Shown here: in pieces, positions 14,454-58,000 of the stretch
Position numbering within the stretch: position 1 is the stretch's first letter
Layout: each line of letters opens with the position of its first letter
Source: Pecten maximus
Lineage: Eukaryota
NCBI RefSeq assembly: GCF_902652985.1
Contig: NC_047018.1
Span: 50,654,001 to 50,718,000 of the forward strand
Reading direction: 5' to 3'
Length of the DNA: 64,000 nucleotides
Position numbers and translations under genes: made by a program
The notes under the pieces: model-generated
Databases searched by the model: none
Told to the model about the DNA's origin: nothing
What the model saw: the letters and a program-made list of their open reading frames with translations, nothing else

Positions 14454-14489
14454 GTCTTTGATCATGTTGTAGCAGGATTGGTACTGGTC
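14421..14489 (-). CDS. Gene B last coding exon
   Basis: [22 protein letters not shown]. 69 nt. Confidence 0.9.
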   Translation of the reverse strand, partial: DQYQSCYNMIKDYLDTTDVYMN

Positions 14490-32400: not shown

Positions 32401-35400
32401 GGAGTGCAATGTATTCTTCAATGTAACAAACGTTGATAATGCATTTATTAACGAAAATAATATCAATGGATTAGTAGAGGCAGTCAATAGTATATACTAT
32501 AGTAGACTGTTATTTACCTATACAGTCTCCTGATCCCTTTCTACACAACGTATCATTACAATGTTTAGGACAGTCCTGATCACATGCATTACTGTACTTT
32601 CCAGCAACGCATTATGAAAATATAATGCATAATAGATCATTACTAATTTTTTCCAGCTATTGCTTTTGATAATTTCTATTTTCATCAGTTATAACATGTA
32701 ATAGTTACCATATCAAAGACAAATGTATTGATACAATGAACAAATACCGTGTTCTCGGAATATTGAAGCGTGACAGACAGGCACGTAATCGATCATCGTA
32801 TTCCTCAATCAATCATTCGAAACATAGCTATAAGACAACGATGCCTGCCATACACTGTACCAATAATCGCCATGGACTTTGATCTTATTATTTTTATGAA
32901 ATATCAGAAATATTATTCAGTCATAGCCGTAAGATTATTTTGGTACATAATATCTTAATTAAACAGTAACTTACCTGTACAGGATCCTGTGTCCCGTTTA
33001 CATGTGTCCTTACAATTTCTTGAACAGTTCTGTTCACAGTTAGTACCGTACTTTCCAGAAACACAGTCTGTAAAATATAATGTCGCAATAGAAAATGATA
33101 CTTCAACTCATATCAACGTTTTATCGTTATTTGAATATCTTAGTATTATCATCTTAATTTCTCTAACTTGTTTAATACAACGATGAATAAGGTTTACAAC
33201 CACACAATTATTAATTTTTTTGTATGATTTTGAATTATAAGTATAATGATAATCATTACCGAAGATGTGTCACTGTCATGGACGGTGCAAAGCAAAAATC
33301 CATTATTTAACTCCTAGATGAATTATAACCTTCTCATACTAAATTTATATAAAGAGAAATATCGTTCGGATACAGATAAATGTAGTGTTTTATTTATCAT
33401 TGATTCAGATACTTGATAATAAATAGAGGATATCTAACAGTGTCTTCAGTAATACCAAATATAATTCGCGAGTGGGGCTAATATTAAATAATATCAAAAT
33501 ATAAGCCACACGAGTGAAATATATTTGGTATTACTGAAGACACTGTTAGATATTCTGTTAATCACATTTTTTATCAACGAAAAACCTACCCCGTATGCTA
33601 ACTAGGCCTACAGCGATAGTTTGTAAACAAAAAAAAGTAGTACCCCCTGTCCAGGTGCTGACATATATGTCGGGCTTTCTGATTGGTCAATTATTTTGGT
33701 ATTTTCTAATCATTAATTTGATTGGTCAAATCAGCAAAAGTGATATTTTTCACTAGTGAAAAATATCACTTTTATAGAATGAATAATTCTTGATATTTCA
33801 CTGGTAAAAATGTAATAAATTGTTATAGTCTCTACATGATAATGTTCAATGAATACATAAAGCAAATAAATGAAATAGGTCATTCAATGAAATATTTTCA
33901 ACACGTAACCTGTGGCAGCGTAAAAGACAAAATTTCGACTGAGCTTGTAACGGGACAAATACATACGACAGAGACCATCGTGCAATCTTCATCAAAACAT
34001 GTATTTAGTATTTGTTATATGTGAAAACAATACACATTATATAACTATAATCTGTCACAGCAGTTGAACTGTATTGGCGAACACACACAAACAAACATTT
34101 AAAATTTATCTCGATTTATGATATTTTACAGATAACAAATCTTTTAATGCATGCTTTTCTGACTTTTCAAAATTAACGGTCTTAATCGTTATATTTCATA
34201 TTCCAAAATTAATAATTATAAAATCACGAATATGTTCGTAAGTTAGAAAGCCGTAACTCACCATAACATTCCCCGTTGTCTTTCTCACACAGTCGGTCCT
34301 GACAATTGGTAGAGCAGTCCTGTTCACATCTAATGCCGTACTGCCGCGGAACACAATCTTAAAGCATGTAAAATAACGATAACTTCCTTCGTCAAATATG
34401 TGTTCTTTTATTATCAATATTTCCTTATGTATCTTTGCCATTAATGTAAACACTGCCTTATTTTGTTGGATGCATTAACCATGGAGTAAGTAGTGAGAAT
34501 CATATCGCCACTTGACCACCACATTATAACACATTTCCCCGTGACATTTTCACGCAGCATTTCCTAACAATTTGTAAGGCAGCCATAATCGCATGTTTTC
34601 ATATTTTTCAGGAATGCATTCTGAAATCATAAGAACCTTCCCAAAAATGACTATATTAACGGATCGGACTGATCGCTTCCTTATTTCATTCCCTCAATAT
34701 CACCATTTTGATTATTATCTTCATTTAATAATAAGCATAGTAGTTGGATTGTTTCCGTGTATAATGATTACACCGACTATAAACTGTAACTCACCGACAC
34801 AGTTTCCAGTGTCCTTTACACACAATGATTGATTGCAAGTTTTGGGACAGTCCTGTTCACACGTACTATTGAACTTCCCGGGAATACACTCTGAAAATAT
34901 AAGAGTCCTCTTTAACTTTTTCTTATAACAGACATTACGGCTCCTATCATTTATACAATAGCAAATACATAGTGTATACATTGTACAGTTAAAGGAATCG
35001 TTAATCCTTAATAAACACATTGCGATAAAACAAAAATTACGGAATAAACAGCCTTTTGATCGCAGAGATATTGGTATTATAATTATCACCTAGATTTCGC
35101 ATTCTCATCATTTTGCTCGCACACGCTTTCAAAGTAATTTGTAGACCAATCCTGGCCACAAATAATGCCGTAATCGTCAGCAACGCAGTCCGATAAAATC
35201 AAACTAAATATAATTGTTAGCTTCTTAAAATATGTGTTTATTGGTACTTGATATGCGATCATTATGCATAAAGTTATCACTTTGAATATACTGTACATGT
35301 ACTTTGATTCACTTACATAAGAATATCTTATAAACTACGTTTTCTTGCTGACTCGAAAATTCCCTGTCTAAATTTTATATACAATCCTGTTCCTTCCATT

Positions 35401-38400
35401 CTTAATGTTATTGTGTCAGGGTTGAATTTTAAACTTATTTGATTCCAAAACGACGTGATAATAAATGGAAACTACATTGTGTTGCTACCTTGAGAAATTT
35501 CTCGATTAAGTCTTTATACAATCTTCTTACTTCCATTCTTAGTGCTATAAATGGTTGCAGTCGTATTGAGATAACGGTTAATAAAGAGGAAAATTAATGG
35601 AAAGCGTGTTTGTTTCGAAGAATTTGGTTTGGTTTGGTTTCGTTTATTTTGTTTAACGTCCTATTAACAGCTAAGGTCATTTAAGGACGGCCTCTTGTGC
35701 GTGCGACATGCATGTGTGTGGTGAGTGCGTTTGTTTGTTTTTGGAGGCTGCGGTATGTTCGTGTTAAGTCTCCTTTTGACAGGCCGGAACTTTTTTCATC
35801 AATCTTGAATATCCACGTCTTAAAAAAAACGTCTCTTCTTTCAAAACTTTCTATTTTGCACTTTTTACACTAGCATTATCCGTTTCAAATAGAAGATCTG
35901 CCTTCCTTTGTATGTTATGAAAAGAACATAATTTTGAAATATCCCAGAGGTTATTTTGCTAAAACGACAACTAGATTCTAAGAGGAAATACGGAATTGCT
36001 CGGATAATGAAATCAGAAGAATTAATTTCTGGTCGACAATATCTGTGTTGAGTTTGTGGGCAATACCTTACGGCAGACTATTAGCATGAGCATTGGAACA
36101 AATTGTAACCCTCTCTGGGCCGACTTGTGTTCTGTTTTCAATCGAGGTTGACTATATTTGAGACCTTATCAGAACAGGTAGCAGATAACTTGTCAAGTTC
36201 TTCCATTTTACCTTTACATATACTGACGATAGGAAACAGATGTACCATGCATAACTTTTAATCAAGGAAACTACAGACAATTTGCCACATAAATAATGTA
36301 CCTCGATCTCTACATGGAACGTAACCGAAAGGGACAGATTACTAATAAGCTTTACCTGCCATACAAATTAAGTTCATATCCTTGTTAAGTCTCATTCTCA
36401 AAATGAGAATTAGGGTGGTGACAACGGAACAATCAGGCATGTAGAGAAGCATTATATAGTTATAAATGATCATGTAATAATCTTTGATTCACCTGTACTG
36501 TGTCATGTGTCCTTTCCACAATTGGTCTGACAATTCCCAGGACAGTTCCATTCACATTAAAAGATTTTGTCATTTCCTCAATGGTATCATTTTAACACAT
36601 AACGATTGTCATCCTAATAGTATTCTTCGAGTCTGAGTCTTTGAATGTACTTTCGTTTGTATGTGTTAGCTGGTTTTAATTTTTTAAAGTGTTATTTCTA
36701 TTTAAAGTAATCAATGGAAATACTTCTTGAAGAAATTATTAACCTCCTCCTTAATATAATCTTAATTCCTTACAGAAATATTGTCTTCCAAAAATGAAAA
36801 AGTTAGAAACTGTTTCTCACCCTCACAGTTCCCACTGTCTTTCTCACATAGACTCCCCAGGCAATTTGTAGAACAATTCTGTTCACATCTGATGCCGTAC
36901 TTCTGAGGAACACAATCTGACAGCAAATATTGATATGATAATCATCTGTTCATGATATAGGTTATGATATCAAAATTAAGAATTAGTTATATTGACCATA
37001 TAAAACAAAGACCATTTCGATTGAAAAGTCTTATTTAACCTTTCAAAATAAACAAAAAAAAATGCAACTAACTGTACTTTCACTCAACAAGATCAATGTT
37101 ACAGTATAAAGGTAACATGATTGCAGATACAAATTCATATTTGTTTTGTTTACATGAATTGTACAATTTCTAATGGTTAATCTATTAGTTTTAAGCGTTA
37201 AATTAAGATTATACAAAATGTTACATCGGAACTATATATGAATACGTTCACTGAAACCCCCTTTAACATTCAATCTCTAATTTTGACACTGGTTCAAAGT
37301 TCTGAACTTTTGTAAATGTTATTTGTCATATATATGACTTTGTTTAATGAATAATTTTATTATCATAAACAATTAACCTAGTATAAAAATAGTAGCAACG
37401 AAATATCATCGATGAAGCATATTGCTATGAAATGTCGAATCCTGTGTTTACTATCAATATAGACTTGAACCGTTCTTGAAGTATTTGTTCGTTTTAATTA
37501 TAAGTCATCTTTTAGAAGAAGTTGTGAAGCTGTTATATAGGCAAACATATACTGTAACATTCTCTACTTCTATGAAAGTGCACTTTCTATACGAATAATG
37601 AGTATAAATCTAGGCCTAAATTCACAGTACATTTATAACTACTACAACAGAAGTTAGCTTGGCCGTATTTAGCGTAATGGGAAGAAAAGAACTAATTCAG
37701 GCGCGTTATCCTATTCGTGTATTAAACAAATACCGAAATAAGAAATTTATTTTTATATAAGGTCTTTGATAAATGACAGCCCATTGTATATTGTTCACAA
37801 ATTAGAGATTAAAGGAAAGCATGCATATAGATATGGGGTAAAGAAGTAATTATAACAGCATGGAAATAAAAATTTCAAATTGTCGAAGCAATCCGCCCCT
37901 TTGCCAAGACACAAAGAATACAAATAAAATAAACCAATATATAAACAGTACTAGAAAATACAGTAAGACTAGTATTTTTGGTAATAGTTGAAATAACAAC
38001 CATGAATCCTTCCGCTGGCGTTGGCTAACGTAACATGTTCAAAGCCAATTTCTATGATGGAATGCTATGTTACCAACGGCCAAGACATTTGAAAATATCT
38101 CGCGCGTGCAAAATAGATGTATATACATACAGTGTGTTTTACGTTTACCGTTGATTTGTAACATAATGAATAACAGAATAAAACGAGAAAATACCAAAAC
38201 AAATGCCAGTGTTCTTCGAACAAACATTGTCTTTACAATTCTTAGGACAATTCGAGGTACAGTTGTCGTCATATTTTCCTGTGAAGCAATCTGAAAAGAA
38301 AGACAGTTTCATTCGATGTATAGTTCACTACTATGGTCACCTTATATGGATTGAATAGATTTTTTAAATTTTCATTGCGGCTATGAATACCAGTAGCTAG

Positions 38401-41400
38401 CTACATATCCCGTGGCGCGCGGTTCATATATTTACATAACCTTGATTTAAAAAAATTTTATCGAGAAAACGAGAAATTTTATTAAAAAGAAAAATTTTGG
38501 TCATGTATACGACGAAACGCCAAATTATTAGAACAGCCGGGAGATCCCGCCTATGCACCACGCCATTGTTTTAATGTCGTTCCGCATTTTCCGGTCTTTT
38601 GTGTTTAATTTTGTATAAAACAAAAAGAAAGAAGTATTAAAGTAAAAATAATATTAAATACAATCATTCAATTCAAATCATATTTATTTTATGTGAACAA
38701 ATTGCAACAAAAACACAATATTTTCATAATTGAAAGGCTGACTATTTTTTTGATGGCGTATTAATATGACCCGATTAATCAGGTGATTTGCACGAGAGAC
38801 AATGTTTTCATACGGTTTTCATAGTGTATTCATGGTCAAAAGTTTGTTGTTTTCACTTGGTATGTTCATATCAGCAAACCACATTAGGAATGGAAATATA
38901 TATTCTTGTGAAGCAATCTTTAAAGAAGGAATCCATTCGAAATATGTTTCACCATCGTGCACTATGACACGATTGTAATTCACATTAATAATATAACTGT
39001 TTTTCAAAACTTGGATAATTGTTTTTTGCTTTACTGCATTTATAACTGCATGATGGTTGTCATATTCAGACATGCATTAGAACGGAAATGTATTTTCATA
39101 TGTTTCGCCTTCTAATTACTGTGAGATTGTCACTTTCAGTTCTGCAAAAAATCAGATATCAACATAATCATATATTGCACGAGATAATACTTAAACTATC
39201 CTTTAAATGACAATGCTGTTATACCATATATAATCACAGTTCCTGATAATGCATAGCGTGAGGTGAGTTTGAAAATCGTTGATATGCCCTATTGCACTGA
39301 ACGTCAATTCATCTAAGTTTGCCAAAGACATTTATAGCCACATTGATAAAATACCTCTAGGCAGAAAACACATTGGCTTTACCTGGTTAAGTTAAATTGC
39401 CTGATTTTGATTGCTCAATCAAAACTACCGTATAATTGGTTTTTGATTCGCCGGCTTCCTGTGATGGATTGTCTATCTAATTACTACTTAATTAGACTTT
39501 GTTTGGAAGGGAACAGAAGTTATTAATCTAGTTTCTCCCGGCATTACTAGTACTATATATATGTGTAAAATTTAAGATGAATGAATGACAAAAATCTATA
39601 TCAAGGAACCAATAGTATAAAGTAATTAGATACCGGGTACCATAATGATCTACCCGTGAAACATTCTTAATTTCAGAGGAAACTAAATTTTCGAGAAAAA
39701 AGATTGATCTGATTGTACATGTATCTACATATTCTAAATGCCTTTGATAAATCAAGTCATCAATTAATCGTTCTTGTTGCAAGTTCATAGCATAAGTAGC
39801 GCATTATGAATATTTCTGTAGTGTGTAATGGACATATTTGTATTTTCTTTTTTTGGTATTGCATATGTAGATAAATAATGGTAGCTTACAGAAACAGGCA
39901 CCTGTTTGCGAGTTACAGTTACCACCATAACACGCCCCTGGACACTGATTGTTACAGTGTCCGTCACCGTATCTCCCTTCTTGACATCCTGTTGGAAAAA
40001 GAAATAGAGATCGTTAGTACTCACAAGTGAATTCATTTCCTTTTTTAACCAGATAGTTTTTGAACTGATCATCATCCATAATACCCTGATAAACTGTATT
40101 ATATAAGAAACATAGCATAATACTACCCCATCACAATATTTAAAATCTTTAATTGGGTACAACGTAGGAACACTTATATTGTCAAACCAATTATCCCATT
40201 GTTTTTTATCAATTTGGAAGTAAACAACAACACAGATGACCGGATAGCTGTATTTAAATTTTAAGGTCCTTCTTGAAATTGCAAGAGGAAAATTACGGCA
40301 ATTTTACTTCACGTTTTAGTTACGGTTGGAAATATACAGCCTGGCTTGGCAAACATAAAAAAAGACTTATAACCATTCTGATCAATATTAAACTAAGTGA
40401 AAATCCAACATATTTTCACACCTATCCAATAAACCCCAAATGTATTCTTTCAGGTATACCTACTGCTGTTTTACCCTATTTAAGTGATATTTATAATTAC
40501 ATCACTGAATCATTAAATATTATATTTTGGTATGTTTAAGTATTAGAGCTATCAAAAATAAGCTGCTTACATAATATGTACGTATACGTTTACGTATATC
40601 TGGACGTTTATGTTACGGAACATTCATTAATGTATGAATCTGAGACATGTTTCATTATTTTTTTTCATAGTCATGCAAATCAACATTAATGATTTTAAAC
40701 TAGGCAGGCATTTACAGGTAACAACCACGTTTGCATATGTGTTTTCGGCTAGGCTCAATATTTCATGGTGGTGGGACAAACAAGTTTTAACCTATCCAGT
40801 TCTTTATTTGTACATAAGTTATACAGTTCAATATTCGTTACAGTACATATTTACTTCCGTTTTTCGATACAACCTCGGTGTCGATCGGTAAAAAGCGTGA
40901 AGCATGGCGTGATTAGCGCGCATGCTATTCAAACATAATATAGACAAAGACGGTATTCCGGCGGGAACACAGACGGCGCTTCCTTCGGCTCTCAGAGGGT
41001 ATATACATCATCTGCTAGCTTGTTAGTTAGACCAGTTTAGTTTTGACTCCTGAACAAGCAACAAAGACCAGTAGGTACGGGTTACGACGATTTGAAGTGA
41101 GGTAGCAGACTGTATACGTAGCTGAGCTTGGTCTGAGTGCGACAGTGAAAAGTGAGGTGTTCCAGCTGGTGTGTGTGTGTGTGCTGGTCAGTGTTGTATG
41201 TGTTATGTTCCATTGAGCGTGCAGACGTAGTCCTAAGACAGAGAACTGGGTTTTAAGAAAACTGTAAATTGTATATCAACGGTCCTCCTCACATAGACGA
41301 TACTTTGCTATAAGAAAGGAAATATTTAGTGTTGTTTAGATTATAGGTAGTGAGTAGCTATAGGTAGAGACATTTCTCCCTCGCTCTACATCTATTTGAT

Positions 41401-44400
41401 ATAAGTTACCTTTCCTAGTTAGTTCTGCAGAAAAGGGTGCATATGTTCATATTATTAAGACCATTTTTTTTAGCAAGGCATGCTCAGAACATATTTTTGT
41501 ATGTATCGGCAGTTGTGAGCACCCACTTAGAATACAAATTGGGGATCCCAAAAAGTAACATGAGTACGAATCCCCTGCACGTCATTAGTTATTATTGTAC
41601 TATAGACTCCAGCGTATATGTCAGTCATCATAACGAGAGGGGCGGAGCATTGGGTCCATGTGCCATTTTATTTATATTTTCTTTATATGTATGCGTATAC
41701 CTTATATAATACCGGTCTATATATGGAGTTGCTACAGGCGATACGAAGGTAGTACGTTTTTACCAGACTAGTCCAAGAAATGAATTTATTTTTGCATTAG
41801 AGGTTGGAAATTTTTTTTAACAAAGGTTTCTTAACTGAAATAGATTAAGTAATGGTCCACTAGAACAAATAAAGCCTAAGTCATTCATTGCCTGGACTAG
41901 ACAGGCTGTAACAAAGTCTAGAAACACCTGTAAGCTAAGCTAGTTTATACACAACACAACAAGCAGTATGAAAGGTCAAAAATTTATTGAATGGAACCAA
42001 AACTTGTTCAGGCTCATATTGATGATCTAAAATGTTTGACTTTCTCAGGAGCTGCTCATTCTTACAACTAAATTATACAATTAAATTTGACTCACTACTA
42101 AGCCATTCAAGAGAGGAAGTACTCTTAAGCGATTAAAGAGCAGGTTGCAGAGAGATCTGGACTCCTGAGCGATTCAAGAGAGGAAGTACTCTTAAGCGAC
42201 TTAAGAGCAGGTTGCAGAGAGATCTGGGCTCCTGATCGATTCAAGAGAGGAAAGTACTATTAAGTGATTTAAGAGCAGGCTACATAGAGATTCTCGACTC
42301 TTGTGCATTTCAAGATAACTCTAGCGATAAAAGTGTAGGCGAAAAACTATTGAGTGATTCAAGCAACACTAATAAATGATCAAGACACCCAAACTCTAGA
42401 GGGAATCAAGATGGAATGATACAAATTATTACAATTAAAACAAACTACATTCTAAACTTAGTGATTAACTATAAGGTATAAGTTGTAGAATTCCTCTAGG
42501 AATAAGCCTAAAATTGAACTTAAAGTGACAATAATTTCGGAGTGACATACATTTATTACTGTGAGTGATCATGAGAGCCTCCATAACTAATCTGTACTAA
42601 GAAGAGCAGCCCAAAAACAGTGTGACGACAAATGTAAAAGAATAAATTTTAAAAGACACCGGATGTACAATGAGGTGCTGCGAGCCGGCTGCCCCAACCT
42701 GAATCAGGGAGGTAGGTTTATCCAATGCTCAGACCAGCTGGCCAGGTGTTGTCCTACCATGAGGCCTAATTACCCCTAAAAGAGCCCGAAACAAGTTTAA
42801 AAAAAGAAATATATATATAATAAACATATTAAAAGTAAACACATATTATGAAAACAACATATATACAAGAAAAGTACATGCATGTATAATAAAAACAAAC
42901 AACAGTATATGAATATTAAAAAGGTATTTTGTACATTTATATACAAACATCAGTAAAGAAACTGCAAATTCTTAAAGGTGGAGGTGGGGCGGATGGCGGA
43001 AGATGAAATAAAACACTGCTGCTACGAATAACCACACTGCCCAAGACTGAATGCAGGGGGCGCTACCCATATAATGTAATTTCATTGGTCAACCAGGTCA
43101 CGTGATCGATAAGCGCGAGATTAGAAATAGGTCCTTATTTGCATAAAGACTGCGACAAGGTTTTTCAATGTTGTGTATAAACAAATATTTAGTAAACCAA
43201 ATCTACATGTTGATACCTGGATCAGCCTTCCAAAGCAACGTTCCATCAGTGTTTGCTTTTGAACATTTGAAACCCGTCAAGCGGTGAACATATTCAAACT
43301 TATGAATGTTCCCTTAAATAAACGTCCTGATTTACGCATGCGTATACGTTAGCGACTTATTTTTGATAGCTCTAATTATACACTCGGATGTATACGTAAC
43401 AACACTATGTGAAAACGGAACTAGAATAGAGATCTTCTCTGTAGTTCGATCGGTTGAGCAGAAGATTAGTAAGCTAGCTGTCCTGGGTTCTATTCCTGGC
43501 AGAGGGGATGATTTAGATTCAATTGATAATGAACTCTGTTACGTTGGTATGTACAGCAGATTCAGGCTAGAAAAAAACATATAATATACCTTTTAAATAA
43601 AGAAAGGATTGTGGTTATACACCAGCTCACCTGATCATTGATTTAAGACAATGTTAAACAGAATCATACTCACCAAACACCTGTACCTCACATAACTCCA
43701 GAAGAGAGTCATTACTATACCAGCTGTATCGTTTTGGGTTGTTTCTATAGTTGTACACAGTCACATACCGACCTATTTGCAGGCACTGGTGTGTTACCAC
43801 CAACTGTACAGCATCTCTAGTACTACTAGTGTCCTCGTAACAGAGAACACCGTTTGGTGGTGTGCTAGTTGTATTGGATGCGTAAAGCTGGTATCCTGCC
43901 AATCTTTGCTGAAAATCATCTTGAAAGAAAACAAAAATCCACAGGTAGATAACCATTTTAAAAGGCATGTATGAGGATAACTGTGAATGTAAAAGTCGAA
44001 TGTTACCAATCCAATCTTACATCATAATTGGATTGTTATTTTTGAAGTCATCTAGGGTTAAAAAAAAACAACAATTTTCTTCGCATCACAAAGATAACTT
44101 TCTATAGGGTGGTAGGTCATATTTGATACATCACGTTCCCGCCATGCCATTCTCTAAAGGTTATCGGTTACTGGTTCTCGTACAATTAATCACTGGCAGT
44201 GAAAGGGTTATGTTGGATACTTCCAAACGTCACAATGAATACGTATATAATACCCAGGACATATTGCAACTTTGATAAACCAGAGAGTGGTCAGGTGTGA
44301 ACCCACTTAACGACGGACGAGGAGGGAGAAATCGAGCAGACAAAACTGACGTCTTGGAAATACATGTTTACATTCTGACTATATCACTTTACATTTTATT

Positions 44401-47400
44401 ATCCAGTGCCCATCGCTTTTAACATGTAACACCTTTAGATACACTTTTAGGGTTTTGAAGTATCAGATTATGTTAAATTGGGTCGTCTGCCAGACTAAAG
44501 ACATTGTCAATTCATACTCAATTTCAAACAATACTCATCAGACGTATGTATATATTCCACATTGGATGAAATCACTAGATATAAGATAAGTATATAATCT
44601 TGACAACAGTAAGGAACTTGTCTATTTGTCAGTCTGTCTGTCTTTTTGTCTGTTGTTTGTCCGTCTGTCTAGTGAGTCGTCCTTTTGCAGAAGGAAATAG
44701 TGTGTTGTATTGTTTAAAGAAAATGTATCGGTCGCTTTAACCGCTCTAAACAGTGAATCATTAATATAAATGTATTTCAAGAAATACATATTGTACACTT
44801 AATGCTTTGAATTTCAAATTATGTTCCGTATAGATAGAATGTAATGATATACTGACAGAATTCACATAAAAATGTATCACAGTAAAGGGAAATATGGGCA
44901 CAATGGTCAACTCCACATTTTACATGCTTTCAAGTATTCTCAACAAGTATGCAAAAGTCAACATCAAACGAAAAATCAGAAAACGGCAAGTACATTGGCG
45001 CAATACATTTTTAGATACATTTTACTACACTATATAAAACACTGTTGGATACATTCTAGTTACAATACAAAACTCTGTTAAATACACATTTTTTCACAAT
45101 AAATAAGCTTTAATTATCTGGAAAATATTAAGGAGCTTATCAAAACAGGTAACATATACCTTGCAAACATTTTCATTTAAGTCTATAGATAGTGTCGATG
45201 AGTTTTTTTTTAAATGACACATATACTCTATGTAAACCCGAAATCAAGAACACCAAGACTCTATGACATCAGCCGCTTACCCAGGCTCTGCTAATTACGT
45301 AACCAGCAAAAACAACTCAAAATTATTTGTATGACAATTTGAATTTCTCAATTTGTAACGTCCGCTCTCCATAAACACGGGACGTGAAAGTTCTTTTGGG
45401 ATGGTTGTGTTGCGATAAACATAATTCAACACAGGATATAAAGTTAACTTATATTTATTAATCCACATGAAAATCCCAAAGGTATAATCTAATCCTATGA
45501 AGTTTAATCCATCTTCCACACTATCGCCGGCGCGTTCACACTTAACAGTTCACACACATTCAAACAAGTCAAAAGCTACATACTCACATTCGAACGGCAC
45601 TCAGGTCCGTTTAGTCTGAAAACTATTGGAGAACTCCCTATGCAAAACGCCGAAGTCTTTTTATATCCCCCAAGAGTTAAATAATATGTATAAATTGAAG
45701 ATGTGGTCAATTGACCAATCCTGACCTTTAACCTGAAATACAGGCGTCTCTAAACCCCTATAACGTCATTTCTAATTATAGCTCTAGGCACTGACCACTG
45801 GTCCAACGGACCGTGCACGTGTGCTGCATAATAACGACTGACTTCCAGATGCTACCGTTTGGTTATTTGACAGACAACGAATGAAGAGTGTAAACCTAAA
45901 ACGGGTTAATTAACTACTTTTCTAAGGGAAGCAACTCGAATAGATTTGGCTGACTATGGCGTTTACATGGGCTTTCTATACTAGGTAACGTTGAACATAT
46001 AACATGTAATACTTGTCTTTAAATAAAACGTACCTACTTAACTCTTAAATATCCCTAATGACATATGATACAACCTATCTATTTCCTAGTTCACTACAAA
46101 TTGTTGATTATTCTTTTCTACATGTATAATGTGACATCCCAGGTTCCAATACCTACAATTCTAATATATCCAATGTTTAAGGACTTGTTTTCATGATACC
46201 CGTGACGGTTGTCGAATGCTAACGAACAAATACATAACGCTAGACTTCTCGAGATGTAGGTTGACGGTGACAATGGCAAAGTTGAAAAGTCGTAATAATC
46301 ATCTCATTTGGAATTATATTGCGTTGTGCCGTATGAAACCAGCCATGTGAACTGTTTCCCTTTTGGTTCAGTGTTCATATCGAGAGTTTCACACAATTAA
46401 ATCGGGCCTAGATTTATATGGTGTTGTCGACGAGACCGAAGACGCTTAATGGCCTGGAACTCGTACTATCATTCTCTTGTAATTTTTAAGGGTCTCAAAA
46501 CAGAATTTGTTGATATTTCCTCCTCATTTTTCGACTTTGAGTTACCATGGCGGTTCCGCTATAACATTGAAACCCTCTGCGACTGTTGTTAGCAGACCGA
46601 AGATGTCTTGATATTTTTGCTTAAGAATAATTTATAAGCATAAATCACTATTCTATTTTTACTGTTCAAATATTGTTTGTGTCCTAGGGATATTAGCTAA
46701 GTATATCGTACCATTACCAAGTGACCATTATAATAGAATGTGTTGTTTAGATGGGTTTTATTATGAGTGTGATCTTATCATATTAATTAAATATGAAATT
46801 ATATCATTTGTGGTAATGACACTAAACTCACTTCTGTAATATATTTTGATCCTAGTTATGGTCATCAACTCTCCCAGATCAACACGCCACCAGGCCGTCT
46901 TGAGACCTTGCCTCGTATGTGTACAACAACCAGCATCGAAGTCTGTACAGTTGTCCACAACTTTACTTGCTACATATTTAGGATTCCCCTGGTCACTACT
47001 TTGAACTGTTGCTTTACTTAGGGCGACGTTACCTGCAATAAATGAAGTATTAGTTCATACCTTATGAATTGAAATTAACGATGTTCTGACATATCTAATC
47101 ATATAATCTTCCCTTGCCTTGAAGATGTGATAAATTATAAATATTCCAATATGATAATTTCCATCCTTCTATATGTGTTACAATAATAACCCTCCTTATT
47201 GCATTGGCAAAACCGACTATTTTGGTAGATACATGCACATTAATGGTATATGGATATTACCTCCCATATCAATTCACGTAACATTTTGAATGTATACAAC
47301 AAAGCATTCTAAAATCATTTATTAACCATTCATTTAGATGGTTTTTAGTACCAATTTATATTGTTGACATATTCAGGTGAGGAGAGAAATGTTATGTGCC

Positions 47401-49259
47401 CCCGTTCATGTTCAAATTCTCAGCGAGTTCATTCTGTTATCTTCTATTGATAGCGCTAATGAATTATTCCAGGATAATATTCATTCAAGGTTTATTTTCC
47501 TTCTGAAATAGCTCCAATATAGAAATGTTACAAGACAAAAAATAGATAACACCTATAAAAGACATATGTGATGCATGTTGTGTGATAGGTGGTGAATAGT
47601 CTGTAAGCGCTGTAAAATCTAGCACATACGTACTCGCCACACGCATGCATTTCGCACGCATGGCAGGCCGTCCTTAAAAGACCTAAGCTGTTGATAGGAC
47701 GTTAAACAAATGAAACCAAACCAAACCAAACCAAACATCTTAAACCGAAATTCCAATATGATATATTTTCTTCCGCATTTTTCATGAAGTTCTCTCCATA
47801 CTACATTGGGGATATCCAACTGTTTTTGTTATCTGAATTAACACGGTTGGTGTATAACATCACCTGTCACATTCATTCACGACACGATTAAAATGCATAG
47901 ACAATATTACGCAACGTGTAAGTCTCTAATAATCCATTTACTAGTGTCTATTTCAGTACCATTTCCTATTTCAGCATATCTCCCTGTTCAGGTTCAAAAT
48001 TTCAGCGTGCTGAAACTTGATAGAGATTTTAATATCTAAGAAAGGACAAAAGGTCAGTTAATGTGTGTAACGAAATGAGTTGATATAGTTAAAGAAATTA
48101 AAATAAATTCAATACGTGTAAATAAAACCGTAAGTATCAGAGGAAGCCTTCAACATTCAACTCGTTCCCTCATGAAGGTGAAGGGAGAACGTCATTGGAA
48201 AAGGAGTATAAATATTTCATTTGTATTTGGGAAAAGGAGATGACTGGTGGAGGGACGGAGAGTTAAGGGAGTTGGGAAAGCAGATATCACAATAGTGAAG
48301 GACTGATAAACTGCCGACCAATGTCACACAACCTGAGGTATGAATAATCTTTACAAACAACATACAATAGTATTGTGTTACATGGTCGAAGAAACTAATA
48401 TTTTATACTAAACCCGGGATTTGCGTGTTAACATACAATAACGTTGATTCTAAAAATAAATCTAAAACAAATAAACTGGAGAGATAAACATTAATGCTAA
48501 GATGTATGTGTATATAAATTGTCTGTATTTATATAACTGACCATTAAGATTCATACCAGGAGCGCTAAAAGTGCCAATAAAACATTTTTGAAAAGTAAAA
48601 GTTTCTCATAGTGTTATGTGCACCGGGGGTACAACGGAGCGGTCATCCAAACAAAAGCTCGACGTTGCTATATGTTCTTCATATCAATGTTTTAATTTCT
48701 ACAAGTTTTTATATACTTTCCGTCGATATATGAAATCATATATACTTTTTTGTTACTGTTGGGCCGATGACAATGATTAATGCTATACCGATAAACATGT
48801 ATCCATGGTGATATATATCATTGTCATTACACATTATCGTTTGTTGTATCTTGAAAGGGACTTGTGAATAGGTCCAAGATGTAATTCATGTAAAGTAAAC
48901 AAATGTAGTATATTTGTATTTAAAACATTTCGAAAATTTACTACAAAACAATAACACTTTAATATTGAAACAGTCGTTAGTGTATAAATAGTTACATGGT
49001 GAATGACATGGCGATCCTGGAAGTGATTAATGTCAGCTATTACGGAATAACATACTGAAACACTAATTACCGACCTGTCCAATCAGGAAGTGAAATTACC
49101 TACCTCAAATTAAGTATTATTAACTATAAACATGTACGTTGTTTAGTTTTACTATTTTCAGTTTGTATATAAGTACTTACTTTCAGATCTTACAGTATAA
49201 AATATGACGAACAGGACCAGGATCACACCCCTTCTCAACAATATCTTTTCCGTCGTCAT
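14421..49259 (-). CDS. Gene B (complete, 31 exons, ~1187 aa): receptor-type protein tyrosine phosphatase with N-terminal F-type lectin domain, ~10 EGF-like repeats, TM, PTP D1 + D2
   Basis: Hand-spliced GT-AG exons with compatible phases sum to 3564 nt in one open frame. PTP motifs: [67 protein letters not shown]: [26 protein letters not shown]. Confidence 0.93.
15285..15420 (-). CDS. Gene B PTP D2 exon
   Basis: [36 protein letters not shown]. 136 nt. Confidence 0.9.
15593..15750 (-). CDS. Gene B PTP D2 exon
   Basis: [22 protein letters not shown]. 158 nt. Confidence 0.9.
16031..16147 (-). CDS. Gene B PTP D2 exon
   Basis: [29 protein letters not shown]. 117 nt. Confidence 0.88.
16665..16790 (-). 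CDS. Gene B PTP D2 exon
   Basis: [37 protein letters not shown]. 126 nt. Confidence 0.9.
17331..17404 (-). CDS. Gene B PTP D2 exon
   Basis: [25 protein letters not shown]. 74 nt. Confidence 0.9.
17817..17916 (-). CDS. Gene B PTP D2 exon
   Basis: [26 protein letters not shown]. 100 nt. Confidence 0.9.
18544..18690 (-). CDS. Gene B D1-D2 linker exon
   Basis: [21 protein letters not shown]. 147 nt. Confidence 0.92.
19412..19547 (-). CDS. Gene B PTP D1 exon (P-loop, Q-loop)
   Basis: [28 protein letters not shown]. 136 nt. Confidence 0.93.
20172..20317 (-). CDS. Gene B PTP D1 exon (WPD loop, catalytic Cys)
   Basis: [20 protein letters not shown]. 146 nt. Confidence 0.93.
20425..20553 (-). CDS. 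Gene B PTP D1 exon
   Basis: [31 protein letters not shown]. 129 nt. Confidence 0.92.
21736..21833 (-). CDS. Gene B PTP D1 exon
   Basis: [33 protein letters not shown]. 98 nt. Confidence 0.92.
22128..22164 (-). CDS. Gene B PTP D1 micro-exon
   Basis: [13 protein letters not shown]. 37 nt, AG/GT. Confidence 0.9.
22615..22691 (-). CDS. Gene B PTP D1 exon
   Basis: [26 protein letters not shown]. 77 nt. Confidence 0.92.
23123..23210 (-). CDS. Gene B PTP D1 exon
   Basis: [29 protein letters not shown]. 88 nt. Confidence 0.9.
23699..23886 (-). CDS. Gene B juxtamembrane exon 2 / PTP wedge
   Basis: [32 protein letters not shown]. 188 nt, phase 1-0. Confidence 0.88.
24458..26050. mobile_element. 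~1.6-kb element with 12-bp IR and ~155-bp terminal palindrome, nested in another palindromic element
   Basis: TTCTCTCATATC (24458) / GATATGAGAGAA (~25879-25890), and palindrome 25893-26048. The flanks 24310-24457 and 26050-26130 match the element at 33425-33818 in reverse. Confidence 0.6.
26308..26450 (-). CDS. Gene B juxtamembrane exon 1 (an alternative in-frame donor would extend it to 26299)
   Basis: [47 protein letters not shown]. Phase 2-1. Confidence 0.8.
26856..26973 (-). CDS. Gene B transmembrane exon
   Basis: [40 protein letters not shown]. 118 nt, phase 1-2. Confidence 0.9.
27590..27768 (-). mobile_element. SINE-like 3' fragment with (AAACC)n tail
   Basis: Near-identical copies at 35622-35795 (same orientation) and 47620-47737 (opposite). 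Confidence 0.7.
28228..28317 (-). CDS. Gene B membrane-proximal EGF-like exon
   Basis: [29 protein letters not shown]. 90 nt, AG/GT. Confidence 0.88.
28540..28686 (-). mobile_element. tRNA-derived SINE 5' part (V-domain-like core)
   Basis: The minus strand has an A/B-box-like head followed by GGTTTTTCATCCGATACTCCGGCTTTCCCC. A deleted remnant sits at the gene C breakpoint, ~60178-60235. Confidence 0.5.
30481..30576 (-). CDS. Gene B EGF-like exon
   Basis: [31 protein letters not shown]. 96 nt, AG/GT. Confidence 0.88.
   Translation of the reverse strand, partial: NALLESTVMNVIRTVLEIVMRRCVEGTQETV
30978..31070 (-). CDS. Gene B EGF-like exon
   Basis: [30 protein letters not shown]. 93 nt, AG/GT. 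Confidence 0.88.
31440..31535 (-). CDS. Gene B EGF-like exon
   Basis: [31 protein letters not shown]. 96 nt, AG/GT. Confidence 0.88.
31730..32160. mobile_element. Unclassified interspersed repeat; diverged second copy at ~49880-50715
   Basis: Shared collinear blocks: gtgcggccatt, ggtcaagaggcat, ataaatgcag.atagaca, acttgaggaa..gtcata.cacggttacg. Confidence 0.55.
32518..32613 (-). other. Gene B EGF-like exon with intact frame but AG>AT acceptor (probably skipped)
   Basis: [31 protein letters not shown]. Acceptor reads ttttcAT versus ttttcAG in its duplicate at 30481-30576. Confidence 0.75.
32975..33067 (-). CDS. Gene B EGF-like exon
   Basis: [30 protein letters not shown]. 93 nt, AG/GT. Confidence 0.88.
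33425..33818. mobile_element. ~390-bp non-autonomous element with a ~130-bp palindrome and a perfect 38-bp palindrome
   Basis: Palindrome at 33428-33556. AAAAGTGATATTTTTCACTAGTGAAAAATATCACTTTT at 33736-33773. A second copy is split at 24310-26130. Confidence 0.65.
34262..34357 (-). CDS. Gene B EGF-like exon
   Basis: [31 protein letters not shown]. 96 nt, AG/GT. Confidence 0.87.
34525..34620 (-). pseudogene. Frameshifted EGF pseudo-exon in gene B (counterpart of gene A exon 1752-1847)
   Basis: CIPEKYEN, then a 2-nt deletion, a TAG in the ancestral frame and no donor. The flanking intron matches 1848-1890. Confidence 0.75.
34795..34890 (-). CDS. Gene B EGF-like exon
   Basis: [31 protein letters not shown]. 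96 nt, AG/GT. Confidence 0.88.
35090..35189 (-). pseudogene. Degenerate EGF pseudo-exon in gene B
   Basis: [27 protein letters not shown]. Acceptor is CGG instead of CAG, and several Cys are lost. Confidence 0.75.
35622..35795 (-). mobile_element. SINE-like 3' fragment with (AAACC)n tail
   Basis: Copy of 27590-27768. Confidence 0.7.
36493..36557 (-). pseudogene. Truncated EGF pseudo-exon in gene B
   Basis: [20 protein letters not shown] followed by a GT donor. The 5' part and acceptor are missing, and there is an in-frame TGA. Confidence 0.75.
36821..36916 (-). CDS. Gene B EGF-like exon
   Basis: [31 protein letters not shown]. 96 nt, AG/GT. Confidence 0.88.
38195..38290 (-). CDS. Gene B EGF-like exon
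   Basis: [31 protein letters not shown]. 96 nt, AG/GT. Confidence 0.88.
39890..39988 (-). CDS. Gene B EGF-like exon
   Basis: [33 protein letters not shown]. 99 nt, AG/GT. Confidence 0.9.
42100..42320. repeat. 67-bp minisatellite, ~3 units
   Basis: attcaagagagga starts at 42105, 42172 and 42239. Confidence 0.85.
43432..43508 (+). mobile_element. Degenerate tRNA-like sequence (SINE head or tRNA pseudogene)
   Basis: TGTAGTTCGATCGGTTGAGC A-box-like and GGTTCTATTCC B-box-like motifs, but poor stem pairing. Confidence 0.45.
43674..43919 (-). CDS. Gene B exon 3, F-type lectin C-half
   Basis: [29 protein letters not shown]. 246 nt, phase 1-1. Confidence 0.9.
46832..47032 (-). CDS. Gene B exon 2, F-type lectin N-half
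   Basis: [39 protein letters not shown]. 201 nt, AG/GT, phase 1-1. Confidence 0.9.
47620..47737 (+). mobile_element. SINE-like 3' fragment with (AAACC)n tail
   Basis: Reverse-complement copy of 27590-27705. Confidence 0.7.
49181..49259 (-). CDS. Gene B exon 1, signal peptide [26 protein letters not shown]
   Basis: ATG at 49259, hydrophobic core, GTAAGT donor, phase 1. Homologous exons at 8493-8583 and 61879-61957. Confidence 0.85.
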
Positions 49260-53771: not shown

Positions 53772-55076
53772 GTTTTCAAGTACACGGCGATGGTATCCAG
53801 GTACTCGTTGAGCAGTTGATGTACACGTCAGTGGTATCCAGGTAATGCTTAATCAGTTCATGCACACGCTAATGGTTTCCAGGTACTCATTAATCTGTAC
53901 AACTACATGTCAATGGTATCCAGGTACTCATTAATCAGTTAATGTACACGTCGGCGGTATTCAGGTACTCATTAATCAGTTCATGTACACGTCGGTGGTA
54001 TCCATGTACTCATTAATCAGTTCATGTTCACGTCGGTGGTATCCAGGTGTTCATTAATCAGTTCATGTACACGTCGGTGGTATCCATGTACGCATTAATC
54101 AGTTCATGTACACGTCGGTGGTATCCATGTACTCATTAATCAGTTCATGTACACGTCGGTGGTATCCAGGTACTCATTAATCAGTTCATGTACACGTCGG
54201 TGGTATCCAGGTACTCATTAATCAGTTCATGTACACGTCGGTGGTATCCAGGTACTTATAAATCAGTTCATGTACACGTCATTGGTATCCAGGTACTCGT
54301 TAATCAGTTGATGTACACGTCGGTGGTATCCAGGTACTCATAAATCAGTTCATGTACACGTCATTGGTATCCAGGTACTCGTTAATCAGTTCATGTATAC
54401 GTCGGCGATATCTAGGTACTCATTGATCAGTTCACGTACACGTTAGTGGTATACAGGTACTCATTAATCAGTTCATGTATACGTCGGTTGTATCAGGGTA
54501 CTCAATGATTAGTTCATCTACATGTCAGTGGTATCCAGGTATTCATTAATCAGTTCATGTATACGTCGGCGGTATTCATGTACTCATTAATCAGTTCATG
54601 TACACGTCGGTGGTATCCAGGTACTCATTAATCAGTTCATGTACACGTCGGTGGTATCCAGGTACTCATTAATCAGTTCATGTACACGTCGGTGGTATCC
54701 AGGTACTCATAAATCAATTCATGTACACGTCATTGGTATCCAGGTACTCGTTAATCAGTTCATGTATACGTCGGCGATATCTAGGTACTCATTGATCAGT
54801 TCACGTACACGTTAGTGGTATCCAGGTACTCATTGATCAGTTCATGTACACGTTAGCGGTATCCAGGTACTCATAAATCAGTTCATGTACACGTCAGTGG
54901 TATCCAGGTACTCATGAATCAGTTCATGTACACGTCAGTGGTATCCATGTTTTTATTAATCAGTTCATTTACATGTCGATGGTATCCAGGTACTCATTAA
55001 ACAGTTCATGTACACGTCGACGGTATCCAGGTACTCATTAATCAGTTCATGTACACGTCGGTGGTATCCAGGTAGT
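53772..55076 (-). repeat. 41-bp minisatellite (~31-32 units) derived from the terminal codons and stop of gene C
   Basis: Unit (minus strand) TTAATGAGTACCTGGATACCACCGACGTGTACATGAACTGA. Period 41, e.g. 54011 to 54052. Confidence 0.95.
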
Positions 55077-58000
55077 CTATGATGACGTTGTAGCAGTATT
55101 GGTACTGGTCCTGCATTTGAAATAATTTCATACTTATCGAAAATGCATAAGATACACACATTATGATCATTATAATTGCATAACAAATTAATGGGAAAGG
55201 GAAATTACTCTTCCATACCAGCTAAGCTAAGACTGGAAATTACAAAATAAGAAAAGATTCCGCGTCATCCAGTCAAGAACAAACGCGGATAATATGCCTC
55301 AATTGAGTAAACCACAAAGAAAGCAGAGGGCAAATGCAATAGAAACATTGATAAATGGAGAATGGAGTATCCCGGTAAGATAAGACTTTTATAATCAGTT
55401 TGATAGAAATATTAAACAGTAAGTCAATTCCCAATGCAATCAGGACCGCCATGAAAGTATCGATATTATCAACTGAAGTCAAAACAGTGTTCTTGGAGTA
55501 GTTGAAATGTCAATATACGTACAAAATTTATCACAAATGCTGGACGTCGCACAAGCAGCTGACGTGAAATCTGAAAGATATCTACTTCTTCGTCACTCTT
55601 CATTTGGTCTCGGGCATTACTGATACAACAGAACAGCCCGCTCTGGGAATAGCCATCACTGAAACATCAAAAGAGCATGAATGATATTATCATAATAAGC
55701 ACAGACTCAAAAGCTTAATGTCTTTCCTCCATATCCTCAACAACCGTCAATATCAAGAAGAATTTGATAACGTCTAACAAAAGTATATTATAGATAAATA
55801 TGAAGGTAAACTACATACCGACACATGACTATTGTTGTCTTGGTATCGTCCGATTTGCGTCTGCTGTCAATAAGTTCCAGTAGGTAAAGCAACATGGACG
55901 AATCCTTGGGGACTGATGATTCTCTACCCCATCCAGTCATATGGAACACTTTAATAGTGGTATTGAAGCTATTTTCCTGAAAGGAATCAATTCCATTTAG
56001 GAAAGACATATTATTTGCATGCAATGGGTAATGGCCATAACCAAAGATTGCAGACTGCGATTATAAGTATGATGGATAGGGATTTTCCACTTAAGGGGGG
56101 TGGGGGGCACAAAATGTTGTTAAAAAACGAAACTGTCTTTTCTGCAGGCTATGCCTTTTCAGACTCCTTCATATCAGAGAAATAAACATGTTCATTTATC
56201 AGTATTCAAGATAGCATATATTTAGCCAGAATTTTTGAAATCAGGATTCAACAAGACACATCAAAACTTAAGACACTACAAAACATCCATCTTACCGTGT
56301 TTTCTATTGCGATTTCTAGCAAAGCGACATTTGCTATTGTTGAAGACTTTCCTTTGTGTTCCAACGTAAAATTCCCGATGGATTTATCTTCACCTTCCCC
56401 TGGAAGCCAGTCCTACGATAGGTAGAATGCAATATCTTCTGATATGGTCATATACCAATATGTGTCAGGCAATACTAGACTTCTTGATAACTATTTTACA
56501 GAGTTCATTTCCTTAAACAGATGCCAGACAATATTTGCTTTTGTTTCATCACAACGAAAATGTTTTGGAGTATGACAGGCCCATCTCAAAAAACCATGTG
56601 TTGCTCCACTGTGACGTCACGAACAAATAATGTCACAGACTGTAACGTCAATGTAATCAAGAAAAGTCTTTCAAAAATAACATGTCGTAATGAAAGCTAA
56701 TTTTGATGGTATTCAATAATTTGTTATGTCTATGCATTCATGTGACAAGTTTACGTCAGTATAATGAATTAACCCCATATTAATTTGATGTTACATAGGT
56801 ACTTTGTAAGATTTTATACCTTTCCGGTTGTAATTTTGTAACGTTTTAAATGAAATGGTTGTTAAGTCAATTACGTAATGTTAATGAAAACCACTGTCAC
56901 CAACCTGCAGTTTGAAATGATTCTATGATACCAATATGAACAGATGAAATTACAGTTTTTTAAATAAAGTGCACCTCGAGCTTCTTCGTTGCGTTACAAT
57001 TGTATGGAAATACACTTACAATGTCGTCCGGATCGATGATGACAATTGTTTGACAGTTGTGCTCCATTATCATCGTCAAAAAATCCACCACGGTGTCCTC
57101 CAGAGGAGTCTGTGTGACGATGTACCCAGTTTTGGATGTATAGGACTAGGTCAAAGGAAAACGGAATAATTGCTTGCATGTGAATGAAAGGTTGATTACA
57201 TGTGGGAAGCAATGTAAGAGTGATCACTAGGTATGTGTACTGGTTTCATGTGGTAATACTGTCACAGACATTTAGTGAAGTAATCATAGAGGTAGACCCA
57301 ACATAAAATCCTTCAGGACTTCAGTATGAAAAATGTTAACGTTAAGATTGACTCTTTCACAACATCTCTAAATAATCTCATAGCACACTTTTTTTTATTC
57401 GTATCAGCATGGAGATATACCACTAGTTCCCTTATCGTTGCGTAATGCATATCCTCCGTTATATCATTGAATGGTGGGGAAAGGTGACCAAGTACAAGAT
57501 TTGATCTAAAATATCACCCGTAATCACTTTTTAACGAGCAAGTTCTTTGATTCTGATTAACTTACAGACATACATAACACACACATACTAATTAATCCAT
57601 TTCAACAAGGTGAAACAAATGCCACATAATACGCATATTACTTACTGGCACTGACACGGCATTTATGTAGTCCGTTCTACAGTCAGTATATGATCGAAGG
57701 TACGCCCTGAACTTGTCAACTGAACAGAACCAGAGGAAAACATCAATCACAATATTTCCTTTCCTTTAACAATTTCTGATAATTCATATGAAGTTAAGAA
57801 GTCGAATTTTAATCATACATGGTAGTCTATGACTGGTTGTGTAATGTAGAGGTTTTATGTTTTAAAAACATGCAATTCATCACTACAATTGTTTAATTAT
57901 TGTACATTTCCATTGCAATTATACTCTGTTTCACAAAACTCGTTTTAAATTTGCTTCAGATTTAGGGTAAAACACGAAAAAATTTAACTACCGTAAAATA

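What the first reader, a model, noticed from the sequence alone, without database searches (positions are those of the whole stretch)
46832..47032. Hypervariability concentrated in predicted lectin binding loops across paralogs
Seen: the framework is nearly constant in A/B/C (NVA.K.T.QSS, KVVDNC, CCTHT, WWRVDLG, YYR), but the intervening loops differ. Loop 1: YYENANWT / DQGNPKYV / EFGGDNYV. Loop 2: TKTNIYSN / TDFDAG (2-aa shorter) / IDTILNRG. Loop 3: QEGLK / RQGLK / APGKT. In the C-half: DRNTPPLYNWYDDDA versus [15 protein letters not shown]. Established: in eel fucolectin the loops around the sugar pocket (CDR1-5) tune specificity. Inference: these segments correspond to those loops and are under diversifying selection while the PTP domains stay conserved.
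Basis: partly seen in the sequence, partly recalled or inferred. Interest (0 to 1): 0.7.

Follow-up and report, generated by a model that had tools for sequence, protein, structure and literature searches.

The report
Fast-changing sugar-sensor loops in scallop receptors
This exon encodes the sugar-binding head of one gene in a large tandem family of scallop cell-surface receptors, and the three loops predicted to rim the sugar pocket change several times faster than the rest of the head, likely under selection for new ligands, in a receptor design already described in snails.

Summary
The exon (46832-47032, minus strand) is the N-half of an F-type lectin domain in a complete lectin-EGF-TM-PTP-PTP receptor gene (B), one of dozens of scallop paralogs (87 exon matches). 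Loops 1-3 align with eel agglutinin CDR1-3 and are hypervariable in 29 intact paralogs, while the His/Arg/Arg triad is kept in 26 of 29. Corrections: copy C is a pseudogene whose quoted loop 2 crosses a frameshift; the C-half segment is not hypervariable family-wide; the variable CDR4 at the exon junction was missed. dN/dS: loops 1-3 about 1.2-1.7, framework 0.3, PTP 0.11-0.25. Positive selection is significant in standard, loop-only and close-pair tests, but marginal or absent once multi-base changes, synonymous-rate variation and recombination are allowed; I put it at about 70%. Recombination is clear: near-identical PTP halves carry heads 12-14% apart, and related heads sit on PTP or ITAM-like tails. 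The design is known from Biomphalaria, pocket selection from oyster bindin, and this scan noted the same pattern in other mollusc genomes. New member of a known kind.

The parts
46832..47032 (-). Gene B, lectin exon 1 (N-half of F-type lectin domain, 66 full codons, phase 1/1)
   Evidence: splice ends; Pfam F5_F8_type_C_2; PDB fucolectins
46974..46994 (-). Loop 1 of B, CDR1 equivalent
   Evidence: alignment to 1K12; entropy 2.13
46929..46946 (-). Loop 2 of B, CDR2 equivalent, between two cysteines invariant in 29 of 29 paralogs; length 6-8
46917..46919 (-). His equivalent to AAA His52 (29 of 29 paralogs)
46899..46913 (-). Loop 3 of B, CDR3 equivalent; its first two codons have the highest posterior of omega>1
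46833..46835 (-). Arg equivalent to AAA Arg79 (28 of 29)
43674..43919 (-). Gene B, lectin exon 2 (C-half): CDR4 equivalent 43906-43919, Arg86 equivalent 43903-43905, CDR5 equivalent 43705-43749
   Evidence: one contig of run X2 joins it to exon 1 (24 letters on the short side)
49181..49259 (-). Gene B, predicted signal-peptide exon (coding part)
27890..39989 (-). Gene B, 12 EGF-like exons, phase 1 (the one at 32614 has AT in place of the acceptor AG and is likely skipped); ends approximate
   Evidence: one contig of run X11 joins 33067-34262
26855..27022 (-). Gene B, frame holding the predicted transmembrane helix
   Evidence: homologous to TM of P0016 (sequence)
18538..23215 (-). Gene B, PTP domain D1 with WPD loop and [10 protein letters not shown] across a splice junction; ends approximate
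14424..17916 (-). Gene B, PTP domain D2 (no WPD; predicted inactive); ends approximate
6500..6706 (-). Gene A, lectin exon 1 (signal exon 8493-8571; PTP part lies left of the window at G000:C4:50636000-50642000)
3892..4137 (-). Gene A, lectin exon 2
60796..61001 (-). Pseudogene C, lectin exon 1 with a one-base deletion at about 60917
55045..60204 (-). Pseudogene C, PTP remnants: cut WPD exon, altered P-loop, stop codons; no exon 2, EGF or TM between these and exon 1

Best explanation
The exon is the N-half of the F-type lectin head of a lectin-EGF-transmembrane-phosphatase receptor in a large tandem gene family, and its three hypervariable loops, predicted to rim the sugar pocket, are likely being diversified by selection, helped by recombination between paralogs. 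Shown: gene anatomy, family size, loop-focused amino-acid change, a conserved His/Arg/Arg core, conserved PTP domains, and chimeric genes. Inferred: the basic triad keeps binding a fucose-like terminal sugar while loops 1-3 (and the junction loop 4) change which neighbouring sugars fit, so each paralog reads a different glycan; ligand binding then tunes D1 phosphatase output. Inferred from analogy with snails: the ligands are parasite or microbe glycans, or self glycans that they mimic. Unequal crossing-over and conversion move exon 1 between genes, including between PTP-tailed and ITAM-like-tailed genes.
For: Loop position: alignment to 1K12; model of paralog P0001 pLDDT 91, best matches 3CQO and 1K12 (Foldseek 1e-12 and 3e-12; Z 21.1 and 20.2). 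Rates in 13 genes with PTP: dS 0.34-0.43 in all parts, dN loops 0.38, framework 0.13, D2 0.07, D1 0.05. Exon 1, 29 paralogs: M2a vs M1a LRT 34.5, omega2 2.6; 17.9 with multi-base changes; a-priori loops with synonymous-rate variation omega 1.66, p=6e-4, and 1.36, p=0.047 with multi-base changes; mixture on loop codons alone omega about 2.1, p=8e-5 and 0.004. Ten close pairs without indels: loop pN 0.115 vs exon pS about 0.04 and flanking intron 0.045; ratio 2.9-3.7, bootstrap P(<=1) 0.002-0.006. Separate young cluster of six at C4:41 Mb: loop omega 4.0, p=0.02. B vs its syntenic copy on C394: 27% mismatch over the loop region against 2-3% mid-intron and 0.7% over exon 1 of pseudogene C.
Against: Whole-loop omega with dS taken from the loops alone is 1.0-1.2 and not different from 1; within clades 1.3, interval 1-2. 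M2a with synonymous-rate variation p=0.04, with multi-base changes too p=0.20; with segment-specific trees p=0.05. Neutral-loop simulations with recombination reached the observed 1.22 in 5 of 34 runs (0 of 34 without). Close-pair ratio falls to 1.4-1.7 for the core cluster alone (bootstrap P 0.03-0.15) and 1.6-2.0 with three more pairs. The 41 Mb and 34.8 Mb clusters pooled give omega 1. In the per-site test 1 of 5 exon-1 sites with LRT>2.71 is a loop site. Loop 1 has one M2a site above 0.5, at 0.73. No binding, ligand or tissue data.
Confidence: 0.66

Rival explanations
1. Relaxed constraint plus gene conversion: surface loops tolerate almost any residue and in-frame indel, evolve at the neutral rate, and conversion tracts and multi-base mutations inflate omega above 1.
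For: Loop-average omega about 1 in several tests; multi-base rate 0.13-0.3; exon 1 and exon 2 trees reject each other (AU p<0.003); PHI-like test p=0.01-0.03 in exon 2; one close pair differs at 7 of 8 loop-2 codons, like a cassette replacement; many pseudogenes in the cluster.
Against: Loops hold conserved positions, so an average of 1.2-1.7 needs others above 1; loop-only mixture stays significant with multi-base changes; 38 non-synonymous to 1 purely synonymous loop codon in ten close pairs against 21 to 11 in the framework; PHI-like test is not significant in exon 1 (p=0.3-0.5).
Confidence: 0.27
2. The loops diversify for a non-immune recognition role (gamete or self/non-self recognition between individuals, as proposed for oyster bindin), or bind proteins and not sugars.
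For: Positive selection at the F-type pocket is reported for oyster sperm bindin (review PMC5712786, passages); the triad spacing differs from AAA and the vicinal CDR4 cysteines are absent.
Against: These are membrane receptors with phosphatase or ITAM-like tails in a multigene cluster, like the snail resistance-associated genes, not secreted tandem-lectin bindins; the sugar-binding triad is kept in 26 of 29. This rival concerns the ligand and is compatible with selection.
Confidence: 0.12
3. Artefact of alignment or assembly (misaligned short loops, haplotype duplicates, sequencing indels).
For: Loops vary in length; C394 repeats part of the region; the one-base deletion in C could be a read error.
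Against: Loops of odd length were masked and the close pairs have no indels; one identical duplicate was dropped; C is broken in several ways in both copies.
Confidence: 0.03

Closest known systems
Biomphalaria MEGF/galactose-binding-domain receptor-like PTPs: B. sudanica SudRes1 (PMC12297450) and B. glabrata LG5R 'scavenger class F-like' subgroups 1B and 1C (PMC13712769); passages seen
   Same: Signal peptide, galactose-binding/fucolectin head, EGF repeats, one TM, two PTP domains; tandem paralogs with and without PTP; extracellular diversity; structural variation between haplotypes.
   Different: Scallop, not snail; orthology not tested; no link to a parasite known here. The passages seen give no codon-level test on the lectin loops and do not describe ITAM-like tails.
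Oyster sperm bindin F-lectin repeats (Moy et al. 2008, known to me only through the review PMC5712786; the paper itself was not held)
   Same: Positive selection around the F-type pocket and recombination at an intron in the middle of the domain.
   Different: Bindin is a secreted gamete protein of 1-5 tandem domains from few genes, and many variants lose the triad; here one domain per membrane receptor, dozens of genes, triad kept.
Eel fucolectins AAA (PDB 1K12) and eFL-1 to 7; striped bass FBP32 (3CQO)
   Same: Fold, His/Arg/Arg triad, variability in CDR1 and CDR2 between isoforms (review passages).
   Different: Soluble serum lectins with constant CDR4; here CDR3 is the most variable loop, CDR4 varies and lacks the vicinal cysteines, and two invariant cysteines replace AAA Asn40 and Ser49 on either side of loop 2.
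Vertebrate paired receptors (KIR, Ly49, Siglecs; recalled, no call)
   Same: Related ligand-binding heads on tails of predicted opposite sign, exchanged by recombination.
   Different: No homology; here the inhibitory-type member carries its own phosphatase, and no signalling has been tested.

Membership tests
F-type lectin domain | F-type jelly-roll fold | tested here: met
   Model of paralog P0001 (76% identical to B in exon 1): 3CQO Z 21.1 rmsd 1.8 over 142; 1K12 Z 20.2 rmsd 2.6 over 146. B's own spliced domain was not folded.
F-type lectin domain | His52/Arg79/Arg86 fucose-binding triad | tested here: met
   All three in B and A and in 26 of 29 paralogs; spacing H-x27-R-x5-R against x26 and x6 in AAA.
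F-type lectin domain | Cation-site residues (AAA Asp38, Asn40, Ser49, Cys146, Glu147) | tested here: inconclusive
   Asp38, Cys146, Glu147 equivalents 29 of 29; Asn40 and Ser49 equivalents are Cys in 29 of 29. Backbone oxygens could still serve; the Ser49 side-chain oxygen is lost.
F-type lectin domain | Binds fucose or fucosylated glycans | not testable with these tools
F-type lectin domain | Variable segments are the pocket loops CDR1-3 | tested here: met
   By sequence alignment to 1K12 with residue roles from PMC5712786. The passages seen give ligand contacts for CDR1, 2 and 4, none for CDR3.
Molluscan MEGF/GBD receptor PTP (Biomphalaria subgroup 1C / SudRes1 type) | Signal peptide + lectin head + EGF repeats + single TM + two PTP domains | tested here: met
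   All exons found in order in gene B; full-length named relatives in Argopecten, Pecten, Mizuhopecten, Ostrea, Crassostrea.
Molluscan MEGF/GBD receptor PTP (Biomphalaria subgroup 1C / SudRes1 type) | Tandem cluster with PTP-bearing and PTP-less paralogs | tested here: met
Molluscan MEGF/GBD receptor PTP (Biomphalaria subgroup 1C / SudRes1 type) | Common descent with the snail genes; adjacent antistasin gene | not tested
   No snail sequence was compared and no antistasin search was made.
Molluscan MEGF/GBD receptor PTP (Biomphalaria subgroup 1C / SudRes1 type) | Association with pathogen resistance | not testable with these tools
   Needs genotype-phenotype data.
Classical receptor PTP, active D1 | WPD loop and HCSAGxGRTG P-loop (motifs recalled) | tested here: met
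   Present in B (Pfam Y_phosphatase); altered in pseudogene C.
ITAM-bearing receptor (PTP-less paralogs outside the window) | YxxL/I-x6-12-YxxL/I (motif recalled) | tested here: inconclusive
   YxxI-x10-YxxV in 5 tail exons, one with a stop before the motif; the second motif ends in Val, and kinase binding is untested.

The most novel reading that the evidence does not exclude
Scallops carry a paired-receptor system like vertebrate KIR/Ly49: glycan-reading heads diversified by positive selection at three pocket loops, with the loop-bearing exon shuffled between phosphatase (off) and ITAM-like (on) receptors, so that haplotypes differ in which ligand switches cells on or off. Here B and its syntenic copy share near-identical upstream and mid-intron DNA but carry different loops and different tails.
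Probability: 0.3. Interest if true: 0.68.

Novelty: new member of a known kind. Interest (0 to 1): 0.43.

Why it matters
The snail version of this receptor type lies in regions tied to schistosome resistance, where the causal genes and ligands are unknown (PMC12297450, PMC13712769). A bivalve cluster of about 30 close paralogs with a constant pocket core and variable rim gives named residues to test on glycan arrays and points to candidate disease-resistance loci for shellfish breeding. It is not a new principle: the architecture, pocket-loop variation and pocket selection have each been reported.

Tried and rejected
Run search: no RNA holder listed; not used as evidence. Laid contigs gave two short joints that fit predicted introns of B; joints over C may come from intact paralogs, and the lack of cover over C exon 1 says nothing. 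Hypervariability or selection in the C-half loop: rejected. Copy C as a third functional paralog: rejected. A recent donor for B's exon 1 and flanks: none above 89% among the 29 other exon-1 loci held. Per-site alpha/beta test: too weak with 29 sequences. Pooling the 41 Mb and 34.8 Mb clusters removed the 41 Mb signal. Monophyly of ITAM-type heads: rejected by exon 1 (AU p=1e-5), not rejected by exon 2 (p=0.20). M7/M8 and Bayes empirical Bayes were not run; posteriors are naive empirical Bayes. Look-up by place in the scan's notes gave nothing. Literature searches listed no paper on this scallop cluster; most hits were seen as listings only, subscription journals are largely missing, and no supplements were read, so snail supplements may hold selection tests that I did not see.

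Full report
Observation. The quoted peptides lie on the minus strand in three copies: A (exon 6500-6706), B (46832-47032) and C (60796-61001). The finding's coordinates are exactly exon 1 of B. A and B differ at 25 of 40 loop positions and 24 of 110 framework positions (p=8e-6). Copy C does not read as quoted: a base is missing in loop 2 and the rest of the exon is in another frame. C also lacks the signal-exon donor at the homologous place, has no second lectin exon, EGF or TM exon, and has a cut WPD exon, an altered P-loop and stops. Its syntenic copy on contig C394 is broken too, by a different frameshift. C is a pseudogene.

Gene and family. B is complete: signal exon, two lectin exons, 12 EGF-like exons, TM, PTP D1 with WPD and [10 protein letters not shown], and D2. 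One contig of run X2 joins the two lectin exons at the predicted intron, with only 24 letters on the short side, and one contig of X11 joins two EGF exons; the runs are only guessed to be RNA, so this is weak. The closest named proteins are from scallops, and named full-length relatives occur in scallops and oysters. The own genome holds 87 matches to exon 1 and 86 to exon 2, both lower bounds. I paired both exons for 41 genes: 32 in the core group (C4:48-51 Mb, C394, C392, C435, C7), six at C4:41 Mb and three at 34.8 Mb. For the main tests I used 29 of the 32, dropping one identical duplicate, one copy without the His and one without an acceptor AG. Copies with a broken or missing exon were not paired, and the more distant matches (23 Mb, C8 and others) were not fetched.

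Where the loops lie. Alignment of paralog P0001 to eel agglutinin 1K12 puts loop 1 on residues 22-32, loop 2 on 41-48, loop 3 just after His52, and the junction loop between Arg79 and Arg86. The review PMC5712786 (passages) places Leu23, Glu26, His27 in CDR1, Phe45 and Tyr46 in CDR2 and Arg79 to Arg86 in CDR4, all at the pocket; the passages that I saw give no contact for CDR3. The model of P0001 is confident (pLDDT 91) and matches 3CQO and 1K12 best. I had no coordinates, so the mapping rests on sequence alignment and fold, not on measured distances. The triad is complete in 26 of 29 paralogs, and mean entropy is 2.13, 2.05, 2.40, 1.43 and 0.79 bits for the five loops against 0.63 for the framework; 18 of the 25 most variable positions are in loops.

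Selection, results for. All codon tests use my own MG94-type code on IQ-TREE trees, with loops of odd length masked. In 13 genes with both head and PTP, mean dS is alike in loops, framework, D1 and D2 (0.40, 0.43, 0.39, 0.34) while dN is 0.38, 0.13, 0.05, 0.07; PTP shows no positive class. For exon 1, M2a beats M1a (LRT 34.5, omega2 2.6), also with multi-base changes (17.9, p=1e-4); the best sites are the first two codons of loop 3, the end of loop 2 and the residue after loop 1. An a-priori loop test with synonymous-rate variation gives omega 1.66 (p=6e-4), or 1.36 (p=0.047) with multi-base changes. A mixture fitted to the 40 loop codons alone finds a class near 2.1 (p=8e-5; 0.004 with multi-base changes). 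In ten non-overlapping close pairs without indels, loop pN is 0.115 against 0.048 loop pS, 0.036 framework pS and 0.045 flanking intron (one pair includes a gene with a broken exon 2, and three pairs are from the 41 Mb cluster). The six young genes at 41 Mb give loop omega 4.0 (p=0.02).

Selection, results against. With dS taken from the loops alone, whole-loop omega is 1.0-1.2 and does not differ from 1, and is 1.3 (1-2) within clades. M2a drops to p=0.04 with synonymous-rate variation and p=0.20 with multi-base changes added, and to p=0.05 with segment-specific trees. Simulated neutral loops reached the observed 1.22 in 0 of 34 runs without and 5 of 34 with recombination; that null is generous because it makes every loop codon neutral. 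The close-pair ratio ranges from 1.4 to 3.7 by pair set and counting rule, with bootstrap P(<=1) from 0.002 to 0.15. Pooling the 41 and 34.8 Mb clusters gives omega 1. Exon 2 loops give omega about 1 in the partition and pair tests, and the exon-2 site test is lost with multi-base changes. Nearly every exon-1 estimate is above 1, but the margin is modest; I put positive selection on part of loops 1-3 at about 70%.

Recombination. Exon 1 and exon 2 trees reject each other (AU p<0.003, 5000 replicates, flagged as few). B and the paralog at C4:50590839 have D1 dS 0.022 and D2 0.009 but framework dS 0.34; the mismatch rises from about 1% over the PTP half to 11-14% over the lectin exons. B and its syntenic copy on C394 differ by 2-3% in the middle of the lectin intron and 0.7% over exon 1 of pseudogene C, but by 15-27% around B's exon 1; whether that copy is an allele or a recent duplicate is open. 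Constant PTP domains therefore reflect purifying selection and, in some pairs, recent shared ancestry.

Tails. Earlier notes of this scan on other mollusc genomes (unchecked AI notes) described PTP versus ITAM pairs, which led me to look. Of 9 PTP-less heads whose downstream DNA I fetched, some only in part, 5 run into a TM exon and a tail with YxxI-x10-YxxV, one with a stop before it; B's syntenic copy is one of them. Exon 1 rejects a single clade of these heads (AU p=1e-5), exon 2 does not (p=0.20). The heads are linked to tails by gene order, not by transcripts. The ITAM motif and the KIR/Ly49 comparison are recalled.

Mechanism. Most likely a glycan-sensing receptor phosphatase: a fixed basic triad anchors a fucose-like sugar, the variable rim sets which glycan fits, the EGF stalk holds the head out, and D1 passes the signal. 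Anatomy and rates are shown; ligand, tissue, signalling and immune role are inferred.

Known relatives and novelty. The same architecture, in clusters with and without PTP, is described in Biomphalaria regions associated with schistosome resistance (PMC12297450 and PMC13712769, passages). CDR1/CDR2 variation among eel isoforms and positive selection at the pocket of oyster bindin are in PMC5712786 (passages; the bindin paper itself was not held); PMC12221842 (passages) added nothing on phosphatases or scallops. Eight searches listed no paper on this scallop cluster, within the limits of the library. Verdict: real, moderately supported, a new member of a known kind; interest 0.43.

Noticed in passing
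G000:C394:218124, C4:50771798, C4:49185163, C4:50945591, C394:344943: Five PTP-less paralogs end in a TM exon and a tail exon with YxxI-x10-YxxV (one has a stop before it); downstream DNA of 9 heads was examined, in part for some.
   Followed up: partly
window 14000-29000 vs G000:C4:50551000-50565000: The TM-PTP half of B differs by 0.3-5% per kb, introns included, from a paralog 110 kb away whose lectin part differs by 11-14% and whose EGF part differs by about 22%.
   Followed up: yes
window 43500-63800 vs G000:C394:251000-271400: Syntenic copy at 0.3-8% mismatch from 50300 on, with islands of 12-27% at B's signal, lectin-1 and lectin-2 exons; similarity ends below exon 2 and the copy runs into an ITAM-like tail.
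   Followed up: yes
window 60917 and G000:C394:268690: The two copies of pseudogene C carry different frameshifts a few bases apart in loop 2.
   Followed up: partly
window 46949 and 46928 (exon 1): Cysteines on both sides of loop 2 replace AAA Asn40 and Ser49 in 29 of 29 paralogs; a disulfide that clamps the variable loop is likely but unchecked.
   Followed up: no
window 32519-32614: EGF-like exon of B with AT in place of the acceptor AG; skipping would keep the frame.
   Followed up: no
window 53775-55083 and 14261-14464: Tandem repeat of about 41 bp that includes part of the last PTP exon, about 30 copies beyond C and about 5 in B.
   Followed up: no
window 33400-33820, 35625-35794, 27585-27759, 47623-47737: Short repeated elements; the first two are covered by contigs of very high depth in laid runs, likely interspersed repeats.
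   Followed up: no
window 10249-11020: Degenerate short-period repeat array between genes A and B.
   Followed up: no
G000:C4:41110000-41225000: Six young paralogs with a longer CDR4-equivalent loop and the cleanest loop signal (26 amino-acid changes to 1 silent state); tail type not found in the DNA fetched.
   Followed up: partly
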